A model generated the notes under the pieces. That model was not told where the DNA came from. It did no database searches and saw only the letters and a program-made list of their open reading frames with translations. Shown here in pieces: positions 21,804 through 32,265 of a stretch of DNA of 64,000 nt. The translations under genes were made by a program, and so were the position numbers. The DNA is from Blastocatellia bacterium (GTDB lineage: Bacteria; Acidobacteriota; Blastocatellia; RBC074), in contig JAYVZE010000179.1 of assembly GCA_043783625.1 (NCBI GenBank), forward strand, positions 527 through 64,526, in the 5' to 3' direction. Position 1 is the stretch's first letter. Every line of letters begins with the position of its first letter.

Positions 21804-22199
21804 TTACGCGTAGTCAGGGAATTCAATCCCTAATTGTTCCATCACCACTGTCAACGTGACGCCACGCAATTGAGCTAATTGAGCTAGTGATTTCATCCGT
21901 TTGACATGTAAGGCTTCAAGACGTTGCTGCAAGATCAACAATTCCTGATATTCATCAGCGGTGAGCGTTTCTTCTGTTCGCTTTTCACCTAATTCTACGA
22001 GCCTCTTTCGTTCTACTTGAGATAATGATTGATTGATCGTAGCAAAGAGTGCCGATTCGTCAGCCTTGAGTATTGGCGCATGGCGACGCGCACGAAAGGC
22101 TGTCACTTCATCAGCGAAACGATCTAGTTCCGCGAGGCTTAATTGCTCAATGACTTGCGAGAGCTGTGGATTTGAGATTTGCTGAATATTTTGCGCCAT
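21804..22199 (-). CDS. Hypothetical coiled-coil protein downstream of rtcB
   Basis: 131 aa, no recognisable motif. It occupies the position where rtcA often sits. Confidence 0.4.
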   Translation of the reverse strand: MAQNIQQISNPQLSQVIEQLSLAELDRFADEVTAFRARRHAPILKADESALFATINQSLSQVERKRLVELGEKRTEETLTADEYQELLILQQRLEALHVKRMKSLAQLAQLRGVTLTVVMEQLGIEFPDYA

Positions 22200-22301: not shown

Positions 22302-23531
22302 TTATCCCTTCACACACACCACCTGCTTCAACGTATGCGCAATTTCCACCAAATCATGTTGCGCATTCATCACCGCTTCGATGTCTTTGTACGCCGCCGG
22401 AGTTTCGTCAATCACGTCTTCGTCCTTTCGGCATTCAACGCCTTCGGTAGCTTTCGCGTGATCCGCTGTAGTGAATCTGCGCTTGGCTTCGTTGCGCGAC
22501 ATCGCACGACCTGCGCCGTGGCTGCACGAATTGAAGCTTTCGGGATTTCCAAGTCCGCGCACGATGTATGAACGTGCGCCCATCGAACCGGGAATAATCC
22601 CGTAATCGCCGAGCGCGGCACGTACTGCGCCTTTGCGCGTCACCAGCACTTCTTCGCCGTAATGCGTTTCGCGGGCGACGTAGTTGTGATGGCAATTGAC
22701 GACTTGCAATTCGGCTTTGAATGGCTTCACTTCGCCGCTGTCCGTGATGGCGTCAATTAATTGTTCCATCATCAGCTTGCGGTTGTACATCGCAAAATCC
22801 TGCGCCCAACTGACGGCGTGAACGTAATCATCGAAATGCTCCGTGCCTTCGTTGAAGTACGCGAGGTCTTTGTCAGGCAAATTCGCAATATGATTTCGCA
22901 TATCGTTTTTCGCCATTTCAATGAAGAACGTGCCGATGCGATTGCCTACGCCGCGTGATCCGCTGTGCAACATGAACCAGACTTTATCGGATTCATCGAG
23001 GCAGACTTCAATAAAATGATTTCCACTACCAAGCGTACCCAGGTGATTGATCGTATTGCCACGATCCAGCTTCGGAAATTTTTCGCAAATTTCTCTGTAG
23101 CCAATTTCCAACTGCGCCCATACACCTTTTTGACGTTTCGGGATTTCTCCCCATCCGCCCTTATCGCGCCGTCCACCGTGATCGGTACGCCCGTGCGGAA
23201 TCGCTTGTTCAATCGCCTTACGAATCTTGCGGAGGTTGTCCGGCAAATCATTTGCGGTCAATGAAGTCTGTATTGCGGCGAGTCCACAGCCAATATCAAC
23301 ACCAACAGAAGCTGGGATAATCGCAGCCTTCGTTGCAATCACGCTGCCGATAGTGGCTCCAATTCCGAGATGTACGTCTGGCATTGCGGCTACCCATTTG
23401 AAAACAATCGGTAGCTTGGCGATATTTTGCAGTTGACGTTTTGCTTCATCTTCCATCTTGACGCCTTTTGTCCAGGCTTTGATGGGAACGCTGTTGGTTG
23501 TTTCGATGAGGTTGTATGTTGTGTTTGCCAT
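22302..23531 (-). CDS. rtcB: RNA-splicing ligase RtcB (3'-phosphate/5'-hydroxyl RNA ligase)
   Basis: 409 aa. MPDVHLGIGATIGSV, GVDIGCG and NSCSHGAGR motifs. Normal length, no intein. Confidence 0.9.
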   Translation of the reverse strand: MANTTYNLIETTNSVPIKAWTKGVKMEDEAKRQLQNIAKLPIVFKWVAAMPDVHLGIGATIGSVIATKAAIIPASVGVDIGCGLAAIQTSLTANDLPDNLRKIRKAIEQAIPHGRTDHGGRRDKGGWGEIPKRQKGVWAQLEIGYREICEKFPKLDRGNTINHLGTLGSGNHFIEVCLDESDKVWFMLHSGSRGVGNRIGTFFIEMAKNDMRNHIANLPDKDLAYFNEGTEHFDDYVHAVSWAQDFAMYNRKLMMEQLIDAITDSGEVKPFKAELQVVNCHHNYVARETHYGEEVLVTRKGAVRAALGDYGIIPGSMGARSYIVRGLGNPESFNSCSHGAGRAMSRNEAKRRFTTADHAKATEGVECRKDEDVIDETPAAYKDIEAVMNAQHDLVEIAHTLKQVVCVKG

Positions 23532-23547
23532 ATTTTTGTACTTCTAG

Positions 23548-24321
23548 CTAACCATTCCGTAGCCGCCATAATCTCAGGCTGATACTTTTTTCGCTACGAC
23601 CAAGCACTGTCATTGATTCCTTGATTAAATGACTAAGAATGAACGAGTCTTCTTCAGAAGACCAAAATTTTCGATTATCAATTTTTTTCATTGAATGAGG
23701 TCTGACCCATTCAGTCACTTGTCTGGCTTTCTCAATTTTTCGAGGTAATCCAAGACACCCTTTGTAATACATTGACGCCGTGAGAACTTGAGCATCTTCT
23801 TTGTAAACAGCTACGTTATAGACACCATCTCTAATGTTCCTTGAAGTGGTTTTTAATTTGCCCGTAACTTCTTCAATAAAACTGATGAAGCCTTTAGCCA
23901 GTGCCGTGCTATCGGTTGTGAGTGATAAGAACGGAAATCCATTTGCAGTTAAGCCCAAAGCACCATCTGCATCAATTATCCCACGATAATAATCAAGCTT
24001 AGAGAAGTTAACTTGTGGTGGAGCGATTACACTGGACTTTTGCCCTTCTGGCATTCCAAGCGCAATAAGCTGTTGGCGAAACTCAAAGCTATAAACTGTC
24101 CATTGTGCTGACTTATAAGCATCCTTAAAGTTCGTCTTTCTCGTTCGCTCCGTGACGGATGAGAAATAAGGAATCAGCTCTGCAAACTTTTCTAGGAGAC
24201 ATTTATCCTGCCAGCCAAGTTCAATTGCTAACGATCCTTTCTGTCCTTTGATTCGACGTAAGTGACCATCGGCTTGGATAAAGCCGAAAAGATACGCATA
24301 TTGAGGGCTGCTCAAGTTCAT
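23548..24321 (-). CDS. Free-standing double-motif LAGLIDADG homing endonuclease
   Basis: Two LAGLIDADG motifs, YLFGFIQADGHL and YYRGIIDADGAL. 257 aa. Stop lies 16 nt upstream of the rtcB start. Confidence 0.8.
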   Translation of the reverse strand: MNLSSPQYAYLFGFIQADGHLRRIKGQKGSLAIELGWQDKCLLEKFAELIPYFSSVTERTRKTNFKDAYKSAQWTVYSFEFRQQLIALGMPEGQKSSVIAPPQVNFSKLDYYRGIIDADGALGLTANGFPFLSLTTDSTALAKGFISFIEEVTGKLKTTSRNIRDGVYNVAVYKEDAQVLTASMYYKGCLGLPRKIEKARQVTEWVRPHSMKKIDNRKFWSSEEDSFILSHLIKESMTVLGRSEKSISLRLWRLRNG

Positions 24322-24364
24322 GTGATTTATTTAGAAATCGGAAGCGCGACAGGGCTGCGAGAAA

Positions 24365-25294
24365 TCATAATATTTCTGCCGTATAGTCTTCGTCAATTTC
24401 TTCTGCAATCTCTCTGAGGTCATCAATATGCTTTTTTATGAAGAATATGAAAATCTCTGCGTCTTCGTTATTGAGCTTCGATGTACTCGGTGATGAGAAA
24501 TATTCCTTTAGCGCGTTAAGCGGATACAAAATACGGCGAACCTCATATTCAACGGTATCATGAGCCTCAAGTATCCCTCGCCTAGTCATCTCATCTCTGA
24601 ACTTTGTTAGTACATTAGAAATAAGCTCAACGTGCATTCCTCCATATTCTGTGAGTGTATCCTTCCCAATACTTTCATAAATTTTCTCGAAGTAGTAACC
24701 CAAGGTTTGCGGGAAAATATGAGCGAGCTTCACTTCTCTATATGTTTGACGGTGTTCCATTTCCTCTTCCTTTAGTTTCTCTATTACATTCTTGAGTGTC
24801 GCGTTTAAGATTTCAGTTTGAGATTTAATCAACTCCAGCACGTCAACCGTAATATACTTGTTAGTGCCATCTGAATAATTGGTCATCAAGTCGAATGTTG
24901 TGTGACTCATGGAAATCCTAGATATGAAATTAAAGGATTTGTCCTTGCCTCGTTTTGTCGGATGCCCAACAGAATTATTTCTGATTTCTCGAATCTCATT
25001 TAGTTTTTCATCTGGCGTATACGGAATAGTTAACGCTTCAGCAAGATGCTCGACGGCATCTTGCTGAACGAACAAAACTTGGAGGATACCGTAAAGGATC
25101 AAGTACTTTTTGCCATGATCGTCAGGTTCTTCACTCTCTTCATACGCTCTTACAGCAAGTGTCGTATCGCCAATTACATCAAGCGAGCTGCACAACTTAC
25201 TCCATCTAGCTGTATTTTGTAGCAGTATGTGCTGTTTTCTTGGGTTATTAATCAAATCGCGTATTTGCGACTCTAATTCATGCGTATTACTCAT
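24365..25294 (-). CDS. Uncharacterised protein with an HEPN-like Rx5H motif (possible RNase/Abi-like effector)
   Basis: 309 aa. REIRNNSVGHPT fits R-x(4-6)-H. Sits between the Y-RNA region and the LAGLIDADG/rtcB genes on the same strand. Confidence 0.4.
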   Translation of the reverse strand: MSNTHELESQIRDLINNPRKQHILLQNTARWSKLCSSLDVIGDTTLAVRAYEESEEPDDHGKKYLILYGILQVLFVQQDAVEHLAEALTIPYTPDEKLNEIREIRNNSVGHPTKRGKDKSFNFISRISMSHTTFDLMTNYSDGTNKYITVDVLELIKSQTEILNATLKNVIEKLKEEEMEHRQTYREVKLAHIFPQTLGYYFEKIYESIGKDTLTEYGGMHVELISNVLTKFRDEMTRRGILEAHDTVEYEVRRILYPLNALKEYFSSPSTSKLNNEDAEIFIFFIKKHIDDLREIAEEIDEDYTAEIL

Positions 25295-25794
25295 AAATAA
25301 TTTTATTAGACTCGAACCGACAACCGTCTTGCGACGTACAGATAGTTTGGAAAACGCGATTCCCTTGCTTGTTTTTCCCCGCCTGAAAAATCAGGCCGCT
25401 ATAGGTTCTGCCTCAACCTCTATCCGTGACCGCCACACAATCGTTTTTGGTGCGCCTCTTCCTTTTCGGCGACGCGAGCGTATTGTCATCGTTTTAGATA
25501 ATTCATCAATCTTTTTTTCAAACGGCAGGCATTCAGCCTCCCTTGTTTTCAAGCCCCGAAGTGGGCGAGATACAATAGCCCAGGGCATCGCCCTGGGTGA
25601 ATGATACCGTGAGCCACAAGCCCTGCAAGGGCGAGATACCAATCAATTATTTCGCCCATTCAGGGCTTGCAAAATATTTATTGTGCTTCCCAGGGCGATG
25701 CCCTGGGCTATTGCATCCCGCTCTTTCAGAGCTTTAAGGCGACACTTCTACGCAATGAAAATATTTCAATCATTCCCTAAAAATAATGGTCGCG

Positions 25795-26017
25795 CTGTGA
25801 TCCGTCGTAACGTCCGGCGCGCAGGCAACAGTTTTTGAAACCGACGATTCGAACCGCAGGGACAAGGATCATTACGACCGAGTTTTTCGAGTAGCTCTTT
25901 GTCGCCGTGAACGATGCGGATGCCGCGTTTGACGTTGGTTTCAGAAGGGAATCCCCGTCTGCGTTTGCTGGTTCGTTCGCTGAAAAAAGGATTCGTCGAA
26001 ATTAGTTATTCTTGCCA
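25795..26017 (-). pseudogene. Small SEC-C metal-binding motif ORF, apparently frameshifted
   Basis: One frame gives [16 protein letters not shown] +1 shift continues [10 protein letters not shown]. Together these match the SecA C-terminal motif [19 protein letters not shown]. The ATG at 26017 opens a third frame that stops after 25 codons. Confidence 0.35.
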
Positions 26018-26123: not shown

Positions 26124-26195
26124 CTCCGAACGCCTGATTTTCAAAGAATTCAATTAACACGGCGACAAGGATTTGAGAAACGTTTTTTGAGCTAT

Positions 26196-26267
26196 TGCTG
26201 TTACCAGCAAGCGGAAATTGAATCCGCAACCTTCCGTATCGCTACGGACGCTCTACCATGTAGTTCC
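26196..26267 (-). ncRNA. tRNA-like 3' module (D-loop-like, anticodon-like stem, T-arm, acceptor-like hairpin closed by GTAA)
   Basis: Minus-sense GGAACTACATGGTAGAGCGTCCGTAGCGATACGGAAGGTTGCGGATTCAATTTCCGCTTGCTGGTAACAGCAA. T-arm GCGGA-TTCAATT-TCCGC. Acceptor-like stem TTGCTG-GTAA-CAGCAA. Confidence 0.5.
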
Positions 26268-26388
26268 TCTGGCATTCGCCGATGGATGAGTTTCGAGTTT
26301 TGGGTTTTGAGTTTCGCGGTACATTCCTCGAAACCTAAAACTTGAAACTCGAAACAAATTTAATGACGACAAGTGAGTGTGAAACGTT

Positions 26389-26452
26389 GTTGTTGCTCTA
26401 TCTCCTGAGCTACTGCGCTTTCACGCAGGCAGGGATTCGCACCCTGCGACCC
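26389..26452 (-). ncRNA. Y-RNA (YrlA-like) tRNA-mimic module 2: circularly permuted T-arm/acceptor/D-arm
   Basis: Minus-sense GGGTCGCAGGGTGCGAATCCCTGCCTGCGTGAAAGCGCAGTAGCTCAGGAGATAGAGC. T-arm, then acceptor stem CTGCGT/GCGCAG closed by a GAAA loop, then D-arm GCTC-AGGAGATA-GAGC. Flanked by long GTTTCGAG-unit hairpins. Confidence 0.6.
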
Positions 26453-26589
26453 ACAAGTTAGATGTAGTTCCACTAGCATTCGTCACTAAGATAGTTTCGA
26501 GTTTCGAGTTTTGGGTTTCGAGGTGCTCTCCCCGAAACGCAAAACTCGAAACTAAATTTTTACGACGACAAGAAGTGATGAAACGTTTT

Positions 26590-26655
26590 CGCGCTCTACT
26601 ACTGAGCTACTGCCCCATAAGTTTGGTGGAGCAGGCGGGATTCGCACCCGCGACC
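26590..26655 (-). ncRNA. Y-RNA (YrlA-like) tRNA-mimic module 1: circularly permuted T-arm/acceptor/D-arm
   Basis: Minus-sense GGTCGCGGGTGCGAATCCCGCCTGCTCCACCAAACTTATGGGGCAGTAGCTCAGTAGTAGAGC. 3' acceptor strand CTGCTCC-A-CCA pairs with the downstream GGGGCAG (G3-U wobble). D-arm GCTC-AGTAGTA-GAGC follows. Confidence 0.6.
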
Positions 26656-26761
26656 TAGTCATTGAAAGATGTAGTTCCATCGGGCATTCGTCGTAAGTTA
26701 GTTAAAAGTGATGAGCAATGAGTGATGAGTTTTTTCTCAAAACTCGGAGCTATTTTTTATG

Positions 26762-26827
26762 GCGACAAAATCGGTGAGAGTTCTCCCCCGTAAATGGAGG
26801 AGGCGGGGGTCGAACCCGCTATAACCA
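26762..26827 (-). ncRNA. Y-RNA-like tRNA-mimic module 0: T-arm plus a loop-closed acceptor stem, degenerate D-arm
   Basis: Minus-sense GCGGGTTCGACCCCCGC CTCCTCC A TTTAC GGGGGAG. The acceptor strands pair (G3-U) across a 6-nt loop. Confidence 0.45.
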
Positions 26828-26942
26828 ATGTACTCCCAACCAGCATTCGCCAGGATGTAAAGTCTATCGAGTCTGTTGAGTCCATAGAGTCTGGCGAGTC
26901 ACTTGTCGTGACGACTCCAAAGACTCTACGGACTCTAAGACT

Positions 26943-28496
26943 TCATAGACTCACATTTTCAATCACGCCGATCCAATGATCTGCGCCGATTTTTCCGCTG
27001 GCGAATTCGGCAATGACTTCAAAAACCTGATCGGAAAATCCGCCAATGTTCATGATGTCGGTGCTTTCTTTCGCCTGCGTAGTTCCGTACGGTTGAATGT
27101 CAATGCATACCATTTTGGCGTTAGCATTACGCGCTTTGAACTGCTTCCATTCTTCCATCGTCTGCGTTGCGCCGTAGCGTTTTGAATCTACCCACGATTC
27201 GTTATCCGAAACGTAGATGATTAAATCTCCGCTGGCTTTGCGTTTGTTCAGTGCTGCCAACGGTGCGCTGCAATTGGTTCCACCTGAAGGCAGGTTCGCC
27301 AATTTCTGTGCATTCGTCATCACACTGTCACGCGGATTCAACGTAGCTTTCACCACTTCGTCCGAGAACGGAATGACTTCAGCATTTGGATTTTTGCGCA
27401 GGATCGCAGCAGCTACGAGAGCAGCTACGTCAATGCAACGAACCTTGCTGGTTGCGCCTTTGCGATGACCAGTCACGGGGGATTGCATCGAGCCTGACAC
27501 GTCAGGGCAAACATAAATTTTGCCGTTGAATTCAGGCACGTTGCTGATGGAAATTTCCATCGCATCCTGCAATGCTTCACGCACGACAGCAGGAACGTCT
27601 TCACTGGCGTTTGTGTACGCCGTCATTAACTGATACGGGAACACGCGAGCTTTTTTAATGGCGTGAGAATCACGTAAGCGATTCGCAATCAATTCAGGCA
27701 TTCCGTCCTGCGAGAAAACGTCGTGACGCAGAAACGTATTCAGATTCATGCGCGTCATTTGCCACGGTGCGGTTCGCGCAATTGCAGCCCATTCGTATTT
27801 GCTGAGTTCAAGCGAAGTCAACATTTGGAATGGCACATTCGGAATTTCCGCACGATCCCCCTGTTTGAATTTTTCGTAAGTTTTCACCAGCGCAGGCAAT
27901 TCGTCAGCGTTGATGTCGCGTCCGATGAAATATCCAAATAATGCCTCACGGCTTTTGCTGTTGGGCGTTGGATGAATCATCTTCACAATGTCAGCGAACG
28001 AAGGCGCAGCTCCGATGGAAGCTTTGAAAACAGCTTCGTCATCGCGTGAAGCGAACCATTCGCGGATCAAACGTTTTGGTGCAGAGCCGAGCGATTTACG
28101 ACCAACCACACCAGAGCGCAAAATTTGCACAAAGGTGCGCAGCATTTTCCCGCTATCAATGACACGTGGAAAAATTGCTTCGAGTAACTTCACGTCACGC
28201 ATGGCGAGGATGGCGCACAGCAACGCGGGCATATCTTTCATGAAGCCGCGCTGACGCGCAAAAATTGCCGTTTGCGCAATGAATTTCGGTTCAAGTTCCT
28301 GACAAAGCGCAATCACTTTGGCAAGCTGTTCTTCGGCCTCGGCGTAAAAAGTCGAATTCAAACACCCGGTCGCAGCGTACTGCGCGAGCATCTGTTTGGG
28401 CGTGAAGGTGTATGCCTGACCGCACGCTTCGTTGACAGTATCGGTTTTCGGCAGTAACTTACCGATGATTGAAGTAAACAAATTCTTGTTTGCCAT
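26943..28496 (-). CDS. rsr: Ro60-related protein Rsr (TROVE domain plus C-terminal vWA with MIDAS)
   Basis: 517 aa. C-terminal vWA with MIDAS DxSxS (VCPDVSGSM). Helical TROVE-size N-terminal region. Located next to tRNA-like Y-RNA modules, rtcB and rtcR. Confidence 0.7.
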   Translation of the reverse strand: MANKNLFTSIIGKLLPKTDTVNEACGQAYTFTPKQMLAQYAATGCLNSTFYAEAEEQLAKVIALCQELEPKFIAQTAIFARQRGFMKDMPALLCAILAMRDVKLLEAIFPRVIDSGKMLRTFVQILRSGVVGRKSLGSAPKRLIREWFASRDDEAVFKASIGAAPSFADIVKMIHPTPNSKSREALFGYFIGRDINADELPALVKTYEKFKQGDRAEIPNVPFQMLTSLELSKYEWAAIARTAPWQMTRMNLNTFLRHDVFSQDGMPELIANRLRDSHAIKKARVFPYQLMTAYTNASEDVPAVVREALQDAMEISISNVPEFNGKIYVCPDVSGSMQSPVTGHRKGATSKVRCIDVAALVAAAILRKNPNAEVIPFSDEVVKATLNPRDSVMTNAQKLANLPSGGTNCSAPLAALNKRKASGDLIIYVSDNESWVDSKRYGATQTMEEWKQFKARNANAKMVCIDIQPYGTTQAKESTDIMNIGGFSDQVFEVIAEFASGKIGADHWIGVIENVSL

Positions 28497-28583: not shown

Positions 28584-28600
28584 TGCGAGAGCCGTGCCAG
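28584..28600 (-). promoter_or_regulatory. Sigma54 (-24/-12) promoter driving rsr and the downstream operon
   Basis: Minus-sense CTGGCACGGCTCTCGCA, which is TGGCAC-N5-TCGCA with GG-N10-GC spacing. Lies about 85 nt upstream of the rsr start. The RtcR activator is encoded nearby. Confidence 0.6.
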
Positions 28601-28792: not shown

Positions 28793-30253
28793 ATGACTAA
28801 TTTCAACTGGCTTCTGGATGGAAGCATCGTCGGCGTCTATTTGTTGATTACGATGATCGCCGGACTTTGGGTGCGTAAGTACGTTGGCAAGGTCGAACAT
28901 TTTTTGGTCGCCGGACGTGAGATGGATTTATTTCTTGGCATCGCATCGCTGGCAGCTACGGAGTTCGGCATCGTGACTTGTATGTACACGGCGCAGAACG
29001 GCTACAAATTTGGTTTTGCCGGAGCGACTCCCGGAATCCTGATGGCGGCTGCGATGTTGATTGTCGGGCTGACGGGGTTTTGCATTAAGCCGTTACGCGA
29101 TTCGGGCGTGATGACTTTGCCGGAATTGATTGATAAAAAATTCGGGCCGAATATTCGCTGGGCGGCGGGAGTCGTGATCGTTCTCGGCGGCTTGTTGAAT
29201 ATGGGAGTTTTCCTGCGCGTCGGTGGGCAGTTTCTGGTTTTAGTCGCGGGAATGGACGTTCGATATTTAGAAGTGATGATGACGGCGTTGTTGATTGGCG
29301 TGGCAGTCTACACAATCCTCGGCGGAATGCTGTCAGTTTTGGTGACGGACTTCCTGCAATTCATTGTGATGAGTGCCGGATTGATTGCGGTGACGGTTTT
29401 AATTTTGGTCAATGTCGGATGGGAAAAATTGGTGACGACAGTTGAAGTCAATTACGGCGCGGCGGGCTTCAATCCATTTATCAATCCTGAAATGGGATGG
29501 GGCTATGTGGTCTTCAATGCGTTGCTGAATACGGCAGCGGTGTTGACGTGGCAGACAACCATTGCGCGGGTGTTGGCGGCGAAAAATACGGAGACCGGAC
29601 GAAAAATTTATACGCGGACAAGTTTCTTTTTTGTCTGCCGATTTTTGATCCCGGGTATTTGGGGAATCGCGGCGCTGGCGGCTTTGGGGCCGCAGGTTGA
29701 TTCGCTCGAAGCGATGCCGAAATATCTGGCAGTGGCGGTTCCGGCGGGCTTGATGGGATTGCTCGTAGCGGCCATGTTGGCGGCGGATATGTCCACGGAT
29801 TCCTCTTATATGTTGTCGTGGGGAAGCGTGATTTATAACGATATTATGGCTCCATTTCACAAGGGGCAATGGTCAGAGAAAAAGGGTTTGCTGATTAACC
29901 GTTTCATCGTCGCCATCATCGGCGTTTTCCTGCTGATTTACGGATTATGGTACAAGCTGGAAGGCGGCTTGTGGGATTATCTGACGTTGACGGGAACAAT
30001 TTATCTGGCGAGTATTTCGGTTTTGCTCATTGCGTGTTGTTACTGGGATCGTGCGAATAGCTGGGGCGCGGCGGCGGCGATTGTGGTCAGTGCGGTTATT
30101 CCGGTGGCATATTTGGTGATGGAAAAAATGGACAGTACCAAAGCCTTTACGAAAAGTGTCGGCCCGCATTATTCAGGCATCGCAGCCTTTGCTGGTGCGG
30201 CTCTGGCGATGATCATCGGATCATTAATCAAACCGCAGGCACAGAAAAATTAA
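28793..30253 (+). CDS. Sodium:solute symporter family (SSF) transporter
   Basis: 486 aa, about 13 TM segments. SSF-like motifs (GREMDLFLGIASLAATEFG). Confidence 0.7.
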   Translation: MTNFNWLLDGSIVGVYLLITMIAGLWVRKYVGKVEHFLVAGREMDLFLGIASLAATEFGIVTCMYTAQNGYKFGFAGATPGILMAAAMLIVGLTGFCIKPLRDSGVMTLPELIDKKFGPNIRWAAGVVIVLGGLLNMGVFLRVGGQFLVLVAGMDVRYLEVMMTALLIGVAVYTILGGMLSVLVTDFLQFIVMSAGLIAVTVLILVNVGWEKLVTTVEVNYGAAGFNPFINPEMGWGYVVFNALLNTAAVLTWQTTIARVLAAKNTETGRKIYTRTSFFFVCRFLIPGIWGIAALAALGPQVDSLEAMPKYLAVAVPAGLMGLLVAAMLAADMSTDSSYMLSWGSVIYNDIMAPFHKGQWSEKKGLLINRFIVAIIGVFLLIYGLWYKLEGGLWDYLTLTGTIYLASISVLLIACCYWDRANSWGAAAAIVVSAVIPVAYLVMEKMDSTKAFTKSVGPHYSGIAAFAGAALAMIIGSLIKPQAQKN

Positions 30254-30414: not shown

Positions 30415-30427
30415 ATATTTTCCGTCA

Positions 30428-30637
30428 TCGTCGCAGCACGACGTCTGAATTTAGCCGTGTGGTTTCAACCCACGGTAACGCGGTGTTTAGATTTTCCGTC
30501 GCGTCAGCGACGATTGAAAGAAATATTAATTTCAGCCGTCGCTGACGCGACGAAAAAATAAAATGTAAACGTCTACCGTGGGTTAAAACGCCACGGCTAA
30601 AGTCAGGCGTCGCGCTGCGACGGGGAATGAAAACACC
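30428..30637. repeat. Nested inverted-repeat (MITE-like) element upstream of rtcR
   Basis: Outer imperfect inverted repeat of about 50 bp (TCGTCGCAGCACGACGTCTGAATTTAGCCGTGTGGTTTCAACCCACGGTA and its partner). Inner perfect inverted repeat CGTCGCGTCAGCGACG/CGTCGCTGACGCGACG followed by an A-run. Confidence 0.55.
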
Positions 30638-30663: not shown

Positions 30664-32265
30664 ATGCCGCAAAAACGAACAGTAGTTTTTGGAATCCTCG
30701 GAATTAAAAAAGATTCCGGCAAAGGTGTTGCACGCCGGGAGAAATGGCGTCCGACAATTGCGCTTTGTTCGCACGAAGATTTGCTCATCCATCGCTTTGA
30801 ATTATTAACCCAGCCGACCCATCACGAATTAGCCAAACAAATTATCGCTGACATCAAAGACGTTTCTCCTGAAACTGAGATCAAGACGCATCTGGTACAA
30901 TTTGATGACGCATGGGACTTTGAAGAAGTCTACGGGCAATTACACGATTTTTTCCGTAATTATTCCTTCAAGCCGGACAAGGAAGATTATCTGGTGCATC
31001 TTTCGACGGGGACGCATACACTTCAGATTTGCCTGTTTTTATTAACTGAATCGCGTCATTTGCCCGGACAATTGATTCAAACTTCACCGCCGAAATATCG
31101 TCGCGGAAAGGTGAGTGATCCGGGCACGTACAACATTATTGATTTGGATTTATCGAAGTACGGCTTACTGACTTCGCGCTTTCAGCAGGAGCAAAAAGAA
31201 GCGACTTCGTTTTTGAAATCCGGCATCGAAACGCGCAACAAACAATTCAATAAATTAATTGCCCGCATCGAACAGGTAGCGATTGCTTCACGCGATCCGC
31301 TGTTATTAATGGGGCCGACGGGAGCAGGAAAATCACGATTGGCGAAACGTATCTTCGCCCTAAAAAAAGCCAGACATCAGATGAGCGGAAATTTTGTCGA
31401 AGTGAATTGCGCGACGATTCGCGGCGACGGTGCAATGTCAGCTTTGTTCGGGCATATCAAGGGCGCGTTCACGGGTGCGATCAATCCACGTGACGGTCAT
31501 CTTCGTGCGGCGAATAATGGCGTTCTATTTTTAGATGAAATCGGCGAGCTGGGATTAGACGAACAGGCGATGTTGCTGCGTGCGCTGGAAGACAAAGTAT
31601 TTCTGCCACTCGGCTCCGACAAAGAAGTCAAAAGCGAATTTCAATTAATTGCCGGAACCAACCGCGATTTATCGGAACGCGTAAGCAGCGGAAAATTCCG
31701 CGATGATCTGTTGGCGCGAATAAATTTATGGACATTTAGCTTGCCATCCTTGCGCGAACGCAAAGAAGACATCGAACCGAATTTGCAATTTGAACTGGAT
31801 CAATTCGCCGAACGCAACGGGACGCGGGTGACGTTCAGCCGCGAAGCTTTGAATCATTTTGTAAAATTCGCAACGTCGAACGAAGCCAGTTGGAACGGGA
31901 ATTTTCGTGATTTAAATGGCGCGATTATTCGGATGGCGACATTCGCCGAAAGCGGCAGAATTTCAGTGGAAGTTGTGAACGAAGAAATTGAACGGCTTCG
32001 TGCTGCGTGGCAAAATTCCAGCGCGACGTTTGGCGAAGGTTTGGAAAATTTATTGGATGAAAATGTGATTGCGGAACTAGATTTATTTGATCGAATGCAG
32101 CTCCTGAAGGTGATTGAAATTTGTCGTGAATCGCGTTCGCTTTCTGAAGCCGGACGCAAACTGTTTCATTCTTCCCGTGAACAGAAAAAAACTGCCAACG
32201 ATGCAGATCGGTTGCGAAAATATTTGATGAGATTTGGATTGCGTTGGGAAGGAATTAAAGAATAG
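30664..32265 (+). CDS. rtcR: Sigma54-dependent transcriptional activator RtcR (N-terminal CARF-like domain, AAA+ sigma54-interaction domain, C-terminal HTH)
   Basis: 533 aa (E. coli RtcR is 532 aa). Walker A GPTGAGKS, GAFTGA motif, Walker B FLDEIGEL. The N-terminal 180-aa non-receiver domain is consistent with CARF. Confidence 0.75.
   Translation: MPQKRTVVFGILGIKKDSGKGVARREKWRPTIALCSHEDLLIHRFELLTQPTHHELAKQIIADIKDVSPETEIKTHLVQFDDAWDFEEVYGQLHDFFRNYSFKPDKEDYLVHLSTGTHTLQICLFLLTESRHLPGQLIQTSPPKYRRGKVSDPGTYNIIDLDLSKYGLLTSRFQQEQKEATSFLKSGIETRNKQFNKLIARIEQVAIASRDPLLLMGPTGAGKSRLAKRIFALKKARHQMSGNFVEVNCATIRGDGAMSALFGHIKGAFTGAINPRDGHLRAANNGVLFLDEIGELGLDEQAMLLRALEDKVFLPLGSDKEVKSEFQLIAGTNRDLSERVSSGKFRDDLLARINLWTFSLPSLRERKEDIEPNLQFELDQFAERNGTRVTFSREALNHFVKFATSNEASWNGNFRDLNGAIIRMATFAESGRISVEVVNEEIERLRAAWQNSSATFGEGLENLLDENVIAELDLFDRMQLLKVIEICRESRSLSEAGRKLFHSSREQKKTANDADRLRKYLMRFGLRWEGIKE

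What the first reader, a model, noticed from the sequence alone, without database searches (positions are those of the whole stretch)
24365..25294. Uncharacterised 309-aa protein with HEPN-like Rx5H motif between the Y RNAs and rtcB
REIRNNSVGHPT matches the R-x(4-6)-H HEPN RNase signature. A predicted RNase encoded inside an RNA-ligase/Ro operon fits the toxin (RNA cleavage) plus repair (RtcB) logic proposed for RNA-damage conflict systems. The family assignment is uncertain.
Basis: inference. Interest (0 to 1): 0.65.

Follow-up and report, generated by a model that had tools for sequence, protein, structure and literature searches.

The report
Orphan HEPN-like gene in Rtc operon
The 309-aa gene is real and belongs to a large, unnamed, horizontally mobile protein family whose most conserved feature is an RNase-like R-N-x4-H motif, but it is a passenger in a hypervariable cargo slot of this RNA-repair operon and not a regular partner of RtcB.

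Summary
The protein belongs to a large unannotated family: about 2,500 clusters at 50% identity, found in many bacterial phyla and some archaea. It has no hit in Pfam, NCBIfam, PADLOC, PHROGs or PDB sequences.

An Rx4-6H match alone is not unusual. This protein has five, and shuffled copies average 1.7. Only R105-N106-x4-H111 is conserved: H111 100%, R105 98%, N106 88%, across two subfamilies about 20% identical to each other. In the AlphaFold models the motif sits at the end of a short helix, after a long helical hairpin that carries invariant Q78. That placement fits the published HEPN description. However, Foldseek found no HEPN or any other fold match in PDB or BFVD. HEPN membership is therefore plausible but unproven.

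The proposed toxin-plus-RtcB pairing is not conserved. None of 94 homolog loci carries rtcB, Ro or rtcR, and none of 83 closely related rtcB loci carries this gene. Its GC content is 39%, against about 50% for its neighbours.

New finding: in this Blastocatellia clade, a conserved 190-nt tRNA-like RNA and rtcB flank a variable cargo slot. Alternative cargos include a Pfam-confirmed HEPN (Ymh), several other RNxxxH proteins, and homing endonucleases.

The parts
24365..25294 (-). CDS of the 309-aa protein ('X309'), a member of a large unannotated family
   Evidence: 518 hits in the 90%-clustered database; 2476 representative clusters with E<=1e-3. It has no Pfam, NCBIfam, PADLOC or PHROGs hit.
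24740..25294 (-). Conserved core domain (residues 1-185): helices 4-24, 28-53, 60-87 and 96-109, then a three-stranded beta-meander at 120-151, then helix 152-184
   Evidence: hhalign of the long family against a ~195-aa short family gives probability 98.8%, E 6.5e-17, over residues 1-179. The AF2 core model has pLDDT 94 and pTM 0.88.
24956..24991 (-). Motif REIRNNSVGHPT (residues 102-113). The candidate catalytic residues are R105-N106-x4-H111.
   Evidence: H111, G110 and P112 are 37/37 and R105 is 36/37 in homologs of 33-46% identity. Across both subfamilies H111 is 100%, R105 98% and N106 88%.
24368..24739 (-). C-terminal helical accessory domain (residues 186-309). It is absent from the short subfamily and less conserved than the core.
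25297..25484 (-). Unannotated ~190-nt tRNA-like structured RNA that forms the upstream boundary of the cargo slot. In the window its 3' acceptor strand is replaced by AT-rich sequence running into the X309 ATG.
   Evidence: It is 96% identical to L096. The consensus fold has an acceptor-like stem and a T-arm. It has no Rfam or ARAGORN hit. The covariance model finds 15 full-length copies (175-228 bits), each directly upstream of variable cargo plus rtcB.
23548..24321 (-). Free-standing double-motif LAGLIDADG homing endonuclease gene, co-cargo between X309 and rtcB
   Evidence: Pfam LAGLIDADG_3 3e-9, PADLOC HEase 1.6e-8, PHROG endonuclease 5.7e-18. A 63%-identical copy sits at the same position in L123. 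Its GC is 41%.
22302..23531 (-). rtcB (RNA 3'-phosphate/5'-OH ligase), the downstream boundary of the slot
   Evidence: Pfam RtcB 1.1e-130.
26156..26853 (-). Four tandem YrlA-like Y RNAs (26156-26282, 26360-26486, 26559-26694, 26756-26853)
26943..28496 (-). Ro60/TROVE-vWA gene, first gene of the operon
28585..28599 (-). Sigma-54-like -24/-12 element TGGCACGGCTCTCGC upstream of Ro
   Evidence: one mismatch. It is a consensus match only; this pattern is not enriched in the window.
30664..32265 (+). rtcR (CARF-like RtcR domain plus sigma-54 AAA+ activator)

Best explanation
X309 is a genuine, horizontally acquired, stand-alone gene.

Shown:
- Its family is widespread but patchy and has no conserved partner gene.
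- The family shares a ~185-residue, mostly helical core. The best conserved elements are a helix with YLxxYGxLxxxxxQQxA and, one short helix later, [IV]RxxRNxxx[GA]H.
- The long form carries an extra, less conserved C-terminal helical domain.
- In this genome the gene, together with a LAGLIDADG homing-endonuclease gene, occupies a hypervariable cargo slot. The slot lies between a conserved tRNA-like RNA and rtcB, inside an RtcR / Ro / Y-RNA / RtcB operon of a Blastocatellia-type acidobacterium.

Inferred:
- The core is a divergent HEPN-type domain acting as a metal-independent endoribonuclease. H111 would be the general base, and R105/N106 would stabilise the transition state. The products would carry 2',3'-cyclic phosphate and 5'-OH ends.
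- The C-terminal domain would be a regulatory or sensor module that keeps a solitary RNase in check, as in single-gene HEPN abortive-infection proteins.
- Because of where it sits, it is probably co-transcribed with the RNA-damage-induced operon. Its products would be exactly the ends RtcB seals. This linkage belongs to the slot in this clade, not to the protein family.
For: - Real gene, large family.
- Motif conservation across about 20% identity.
- The motif lies at the end of helix 96-109, followed by a loop. It is preceded by the hairpin 28-53/60-87, which carries invariant Q78 and D79 (92% in the long family). It is followed, after a beta insert, by long helix 152-184.
- This matches the published HEPN layout: Rx4-6H at the end of helix-3, a polar N/D/H after the R, a conserved acidic residue in helix-2, and inserts of up to 60 aa.
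- Solitary gene: no conserved neighbour in 94 loci. Nearby genes often include integrases, toxin-antitoxin and restriction-modification genes, KAP, SIR2 and CHAT.
- Horizontal acquisition: GC 39.2% against 51% for RtcB and 49.5% for Ro, with window ORFs at 47.3 +/- 3.4%.
- Cargo slot: RtcR is 95% and RtcB 87% identical in L096, yet the genes between the tRNA-like RNA and rtcB are entirely different. All 15 loci that have the tRNA-like RNA carry variable cargo after it.
- A Pfam-confirmed HEPN (Ymh, PF09509) occupies the same slot in L119. In 4 of 5 loci with a homing endonuclease next to rtcB, the gene just upstream of the endonuclease has R[NDH]x3-5H. The background rate is 21%, giving a post-hoc P of about 0.008.
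Against: - No profile or sequence similarity to any HEPN family or any solved structure. hhalign against the Ymh cargo is null.
- Foldseek with two high-confidence models finds nothing in PDB or BFVD. All TM-scores normalised to the query are below 0.3, and no HEPN is in the top 50.
- A beta-meander between the motif helix and the putative helix-4 is atypical for HEPN.
- The acidic residue D79 is Q in the short subfamily.
- Bare Rx4-6H matches are common.
- No activity, toxicity or transcript data exist.
Confidence: 0.45

Rival explanations
1. X309 has a novel helical fold unrelated to HEPN. The conserved R/N/H, QQ, R12 and R126 residues form some other site, for example a nucleotide- or phosphate-binding site or a protein-interaction site. 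The resemblance to Rx4-6H is coincidental.
For: No HEPN signal appears in any profile, sequence or Foldseek search. Rx4-6H patterns arise by chance in 83% of shuffles. There is an unusual beta-meander and an extra N-terminal helix with invariant R12.
Against: The motif is the most conserved segment of the family and has the N after R that is typical of HEPN. Its position relative to the helices fits the HEPN definition. HEPN families are notoriously undetectable by sequence.
Confidence: 0.35
2. X309 is a dedicated component of the Rtc/Ro RNA-repair system: a toxin whose damage is repaired by the co-encoded RtcB.
For: It has the same strand and position inside the Ro/Y-RNA/rtcB unit, with a sigma-54-like site upstream of Ro. 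Other loci of the clade carry HEPN or RNxxxH proteins at the same place. HEPN products are RtcB substrates (established biochemistry).
Against: 0 of 94 X309-family loci contain rtcB, Ro, rtcR or the tRNA-like RNA. 0 of 83 closely related rtcB loci contain X309. Its GC is atypical. Many slot cargos have no RNase-like motif.
Confidence: 0.12
3. X309 is the toxin of a classical two-gene toxin-antitoxin pair (HepT/MntA-like).
For: Homologs often lie among toxin-antitoxin genes.
Against: No conserved adjacent ORF of 35 aa or more on either side in 94 loci. No MNT-type neighbour was seen.
Confidence: 0.05

Closest known systems
Solitary HEPN-superfamily defence or abortive-infection proteins (Abi_2/AbiD-AbiF, DUF4145-like, Ymh/PF09509; Anantharaman et al. 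2013, PMC3710099)
   Same: Stand-alone gene of about 200-300 aa, patchy distribution, frequent neighbourhood of restriction-modification, toxin-antitoxin and integrase genes, and a conserved R-[NDH]-x4-6-H at the end of a helix in an alpha-helical core. The local pattern 'L..L.i......l.eIRxiRN...H' resembles the 172-aa RNRSSH cargo protein of L096. My impression that it also resembles the DUF4145 signature rests on memory only; hhalign aligns the two motifs with P=0.016, which is not significant.
   Different: No detectable profile or Foldseek similarity to any of these families. There is a beta-meander after the motif, an extra N-terminal helix, Rx5H spacing with an invariant G-H-P, and a family-specific C-terminal domain.
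Salmonella-type rsr-yrlBA-rtcBA operon controlled by RtcR (PMC7790460, PMC4201824)
   Same: An RtcR sigma-54 activator, the Ro60 ortholog, YrlA-like Y RNAs and RtcB in one locus.
   Different: No RtcA was seen in the operon. There are four tandem Y RNAs, a SEC-C-motif small ORF, an extra 190-nt tRNA-like RNA, and a hypervariable cargo slot with homing endonucleases in front of rtcB.
PrrC/RloC anticodon nucleases versus phage T4 Pnk/Rnl repair
   Same: A HEPN RNase makes 2',3'-cyclic-phosphate and 5'-OH breaks that an RNA ligase can reverse.
   Different: There the nuclease and the repair enzymes belong to opposing genomes. Here a putative nuclease sits in cis with the ligase, and the pairing is not conserved.
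HepT/MntA (HEPN/MNT) toxin-antitoxin modules
   Same: The putative Rx4-6H RNase chemistry.
   Different: No MNT partner, no DUF86 similarity, and about three times larger.

Membership tests
HEPN superfamily | Conserved Rx4-6H motif | tested here: met
   R105-x5-H111: H is 100% and R 98% conserved in 56 sequences from two subfamilies.
HEPN superfamily | Polar residue (N, D or H) immediately after the R | tested here: met
   N106 is 88% conserved and H occurs in several others.
HEPN superfamily | [quoted passage not shown] | tested here: inconclusive
   The secondary structure of the AF2 models fits: H28-53/H60-87, then H96-109 with the motif, a loop plus beta insert, then H152-184.
HEPN superfamily | Structural similarity to solved HEPN domains | tested here: inconclusive
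HEPN superfamily | Profile similarity to a recognised HEPN family (Pfam, NCBIfam) | tested here: not met
   Scans of 40 + 29 + 56 members found no HEPN family even at E<=10. hhalign against a Ymh protein is null.
HEPN superfamily | Second conserved acidic residue in helix-2 (often Ex3[KR]) | tested here: inconclusive
   D79 in QQDA is 34/37 in the long family but Q in the short family. Invariant Q78 lies on the same helix.
HEPN superfamily | Metal-independent RNase activity, usually as a dimer | not testable with these tools
   Needs biochemistry or multimer modelling.
Rtc/Ro RNA-repair operon (core component) | Conserved co-occurrence with rtcB, rtcR or Ro across genomes | tested here: not met
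   0/94 X309-family loci and 0/83 close rtcB loci.
Rtc/Ro RNA-repair operon (core component) | Lies inside the transcription unit in this genome | tested here: inconclusive
   Same strand, between the Y RNAs and rtcB, with gaps of 43 and 16 bp to the downstream genes. Terminator-like hairpins exist upstream. No transcript data.
Type II toxin-antitoxin toxin | Conserved adjacent antitoxin gene | tested here: not met
   No conserved adjacent ORF of 35 aa or more in 94 loci.
Known anti-phage defence systems (PADLOC) | Match to a defence-system protein model | tested here: not met

The most novel reading that the evidence does not exclude
In Blastocatellia-type acidobacteria the RtcR / Ro / Y-RNA / RtcB operon contains a dedicated, rapidly exchanging cassette site. 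The site is bounded by a previously undescribed tRNA-like RNA and rtcB, and cassettes are shuffled with the help of LAGLIDADG or HNH homing endonucleases. It collects alternative RNases: Ymh, several unverified RNxxxH cargo proteins (the 172-aa, 167-aa, 173-aa and 229-aa ones) and X309, a new HEPN-like family. Their 2',3'-cyclic-phosphate cleavage products would both activate RtcR and be resealed by RtcB. That would make it a self-contained, diversifying 'damage-and-repair' immunity or stress module.
Probability: 0.2. Interest if true: 0.8.

Novelty: new variant of a known kind. Interest (0 to 1): 0.6.

Why it matters
If the core is a HEPN RNase, this is a large family that no protein-family or defence-system library yet describes: about 2,500 clusters, in bacteria and archaea, with short forms in Vibrio and Shewanella. 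It has an unusual architecture.

Independently of that, the locus shows something useful for RNA-repair biology. An otherwise conserved RtcR/Ro/Y-RNA/RtcB operon carries an unannotated tRNA-like RNA followed by a hypervariable slot. That slot repeatedly holds HEPN-type or RNxxxH proteins and homing endonucleases.

This gives a concrete, testable system for the long-standing question of which nucleases generate the damaged RNAs that activate RtcR and are repaired by RtcB.

Tried and rejected
- Pfam, NCBIfam, PADLOC and PHROGs scans of X309, of 40 long-family members, 29 short-family members and 56 mixed members found nothing relevant.
- PDB sequence searches with the single protein, three family profiles and a motif-only profile found nothing.
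- Rare longer 'fusion' homologs (P0132, P0140, P0256) have extensions with no Pfam or PDB hit, and one looks like out-of-frame junk. They were not used.
- A 2H-phosphoesterase reading of H-P-T was rejected. The T is not conserved in the short family, and there is only one invariant His.
- A phage origin was rejected: no hit in 50,697 phage genomes or in IMG/VR.
- Plasmid carriage is rare: 3 records.
- My early note that the SEC-C-motif ORF is a frameshifted pseudogene was withdrawn. Relatives read the same frame.
- The other RNxxxH cargo proteins could not be confirmed as HEPN through PDB sequence search or plasmid annotation.
- The supplement of the HEPN paper holds no alignments that could be used for hhalign.

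Full report
**Observation**

The ORF at 24365..25294 (-) encodes 309 aa. Its N-terminus aligns with the starts of homologs. REIRNNSVGHPT is residues 102-113.

RtcR lies at 30664-32265 (+), a Ro60/TROVE-vWA gene at 26943-28496 (-) and RtcB at 22302-23531 (-). Four YrlA-like Y RNA matches lie at 26156-26853 (-). They are below Rfam's gathering score but have E-values down to 3e-12. A double-motif LAGLIDADG endonuclease gene (23548-24321) separates the ORF from rtcB. A sigma-54-like element lies upstream of Ro.

**Is the motif more than chance?**

As a pattern, no. X309 contains five Rx4-6H matches, shuffles average 1.7, and 83% of shuffles have at least one. Conservation singles out one of them.

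- The family is large: 518 hits in the 90%-clustered database and 2476 representative clusters at E<=1e-3. It occurs in many bacterial phyla and in Methanothrix and Methanophagaceae.
- In 37 homologs of 33-46% identity, G110, H111 and P112 are invariant and R105 is 36/37.
- A tblastn search against plasmids revealed a second subfamily of about 195 aa in Shewanella, Vibrio, Marinobacter and relatives.
- That subfamily is homologous over X309 residues 1-179 (hhalign probability 98.8%, E 6.5e-17).
- Across both subfamilies only R12, Q78 and H111 are invariant. R105 is 98% and N106 88% conserved.

**Fold**

AlphaFold2 gives confident models: full length pLDDT 91 and pTM 0.81, and core 1-190 pLDDT 94 and pTM 0.88.

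The layout is:
- helices 4-24, 28-53 and 60-87;
- a short helix 96-109 that ends in the motif;
- a three-stranded meander at 120-151;
- a long helix 152-184;
- a four-helix C-terminal domain found only in the long family and less conserved.

The reference description of HEPN is a bundle of two alpha-hairpins. [quoted passage not shown] A polar N, D or H follows the R. A conserved acidic residue lies in helix-2. Inserts of up to 60 aa are tolerated.

X309 maps onto this well. Helix 1 would be 28-53. Helix 2 would be 60-87, carrying Q77-Q78-D79. Helix 3 would be 96-109, carrying R105-N106...H111. Helix 4 would be 152-184.

There is, however, no independent statistical support.
- No HEPN family or any other family is hit in Pfam, NCBIfam, PADLOC or PHROGs by any of more than 100 members.
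- PDB sequences give no match, even with a motif-only profile.
- Foldseek finds nothing in PDB or BFVD. All TM-scores normalised to the query are below 0.3.

HEPN membership is thus plausible on defining features but unproven. I put it at about 0.45-0.5.

**Genomic association**

The 'RNase inside an RNA-ligase/Ro operon' logic fails as a family-level rule.
- In 94 loci encoding homologs (up to 10 kb flanks; 59 have at least 3 kb on both sides), none has rtcB, Ro, rtcR or the LAGLIDADG gene. None has the tRNA-like RNA described below.
- No neighbour is conserved, not even small adjacent ORFs.
- Immediate neighbours in 80 species are heterogeneous: methylases, Fic, DUF499, integrases and housekeeping genes.
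- Individual contexts include integrases, VapBC/BrnT/PIN toxin-antitoxin genes, a KAP NTPase, SIR2 and CHAT.
- Conversely, 83 loci with RtcB 68-94% identical to this one contain no X309 homolog.
- X309 (GC 39.2%) and the LAGLIDADG gene (41.3%) stand out from RtcB (51%), Ro (49.5%) and the window's long ORFs (47.3 +/- 3.4%).
- There are no phage copies, and plasmid copies are rare.

X309 is a horizontally acquired passenger here.

**What the locus really is**

Comparison with the closest Rtc loci shows that X309 sits in a hypervariable slot.

L096 is syntenic: RtcR 95%, Ro 84% and RtcB 87% identical, with an ortholog of the 131-aa downstream protein. Even so, the genes directly before rtcB are entirely different. 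They are a 172-aa protein with 'AIRHLRNRSSHPE' and an HNH endonuclease.

DNA alignment locates the break. A non-coding segment at window 25309-25518 is 96% identical to L096, more than the flanking genes are, and it ends 15 nt before the X309 ATG.

This segment folds as a ~190-nt tRNA-like RNA. It has a 7-bp acceptor-like stem, a GUCGG-UUCGAAU-CCGAC T-arm and a large internal domain. It has no Rfam or ARAGORN match.

A covariance model finds full-length copies (175-228 bits) in 15 loci of the clade. In every case the copy is directly followed by variable cargo and then rtcB.

| Locus | Cargo between the tRNA-like RNA and rtcB |
|---|---|
| window | X309 + LAGLIDADG |
| L096 | 172 aa (RNRSSH) + HNH |
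| L119 | Ymh (PF09509) + HNH |
| L122 | 167 aa (RNWLAHH) + HNH |
| L123 | 201 aa (YRNLIHPG) + 136 aa + LAGLIDADG |
| L098 | 127 aa + 243 aa + 173 aa (RDALAH) |
| L106, L111 | 229 aa (RCQYLH) |
| L105, L116 | 241 aa |
| L100, L115 | 313 aa |
| L107 | 271 aa |
| L097 | DUF5677 |

In the window copy the 3' acceptor strand is replaced by AT-rich sequence. The cargo junction therefore lies just after the T-arm.

Ymh is a recognised HEPN family. The other RNxxxH cargos could not be verified.

In 4 of 5 loci with a homing endonuclease next to rtcB, the gene just upstream of the endonuclease carries R[NDH]x3-5H. The background rate is 21%, giving a post-hoc P of about 0.008. This is suggestive only.

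**Mechanism proposed**

Shown: a solitary, mobile gene with a conserved R-N-x4-H and QQ core, placed in a cargo slot of an RNA-damage-responsive operon.

Inferred:
- It is a HEPN-type, metal-independent endoribonuclease.
- The C-terminal domain restrains or triggers its activity.
- Because of its position it is probably expressed with Ro, the Y RNAs and RtcB.
- Its products (2',3'-cyclic phosphate and 5'-OH ends) would be RtcB substrates. They could also feed RtcR, whose CARF-like domain is reported to respond to damaged tRNA (abstract of PMC7790460).

The main rival is a novel, non-HEPN helical protein whose conserved polar cluster does something else.

**Verdict**

The gene represents a new, unannotated family that is at best a divergent variant of HEPN. 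The more notable result is the tRNA-like-RNA/rtcB cargo slot that hosts it.

Noticed in passing
window 25297-25484 (-); also L096 7692-7880, L098 6157-6348, L119 5580-5777, L123 2004-2203 and 10 more loci: An unannotated ~190-nt tRNA-like structured RNA. It has an acceptor-like stem, a canonical T-arm, a GNRA hairpin and a large internal domain in the anticodon-arm position. It is conserved at up to 96% identity, more than the neighbouring genes, and always lies between the Y RNAs/SEC-C ORF and the variable cargo before rtcB. It has no Rfam or ARAGORN hit. In the window its 3' acceptor strand is lost.
   Followed up: partly
window 23532-25308 compared with L096-L123: The region between the tRNA-like RNA and rtcB is a hypervariable cargo slot, with at least 11 unrelated gene sets in 15 loci. 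It often includes a free-standing homing endonuclease (LAGLIDADG in the window and L123; HNH in L096, L119 and L122) immediately upstream of rtcB.
   Followed up: partly
window about 25770-25990 (-): A small ORF with a SEC-C-like motif ([14 protein letters not shown]). It is conserved as an ~83-aa ORF in relatives (L105, L106, L116-L119; PF02810 weak hit in L178), between the Y RNAs and the tRNA-like RNA. Its function is unknown.
   Followed up: partly
window 25552-25733 and 30418-30633: The Rfam Acido-Lenti-1 hits (42 bits at 25689-25733 +, 35 bits at 25552-25597 -, and weaker ones at 30429-30622) are the two arms of nested palindromic elements about 180-215 nt long, each with an inner hairpin. 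They look like repeated, MITE- or REP-like elements and not like a single sRNA gene.
   Followed up: partly
window 26156-26853 (-): Four tandem YrlA-like Y RNAs, more than the one or two usually described. All score below the Rfam gathering threshold (61, 59, 35 and 26 bits against 69).
   Followed up: no
window 21804-22199 (-): A 131-aa protein downstream of rtcB with no family assignment (weak EAD11 and PDC-S06 hits). It has a 78%-identical ortholog in L096, where three extra genes separate it from rtcB, which suggests a second variable site downstream of rtcB.
   Followed up: no
P0381 (RtcB homolog, 561 aa): A close RtcB relative carries an intein (Hint and Intein_splicing domains). Together with the free-standing endonucleases, this suggests rtcB in this clade is a recurrent target of homing elements.
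   Followed up: no
window 28793-30253 (+): A sodium:solute symporter-family gene sits between Ro and rtcR. This arrangement is conserved in L096, so rtcR is not directly divergent from the operon it presumably controls.
   Followed up: no
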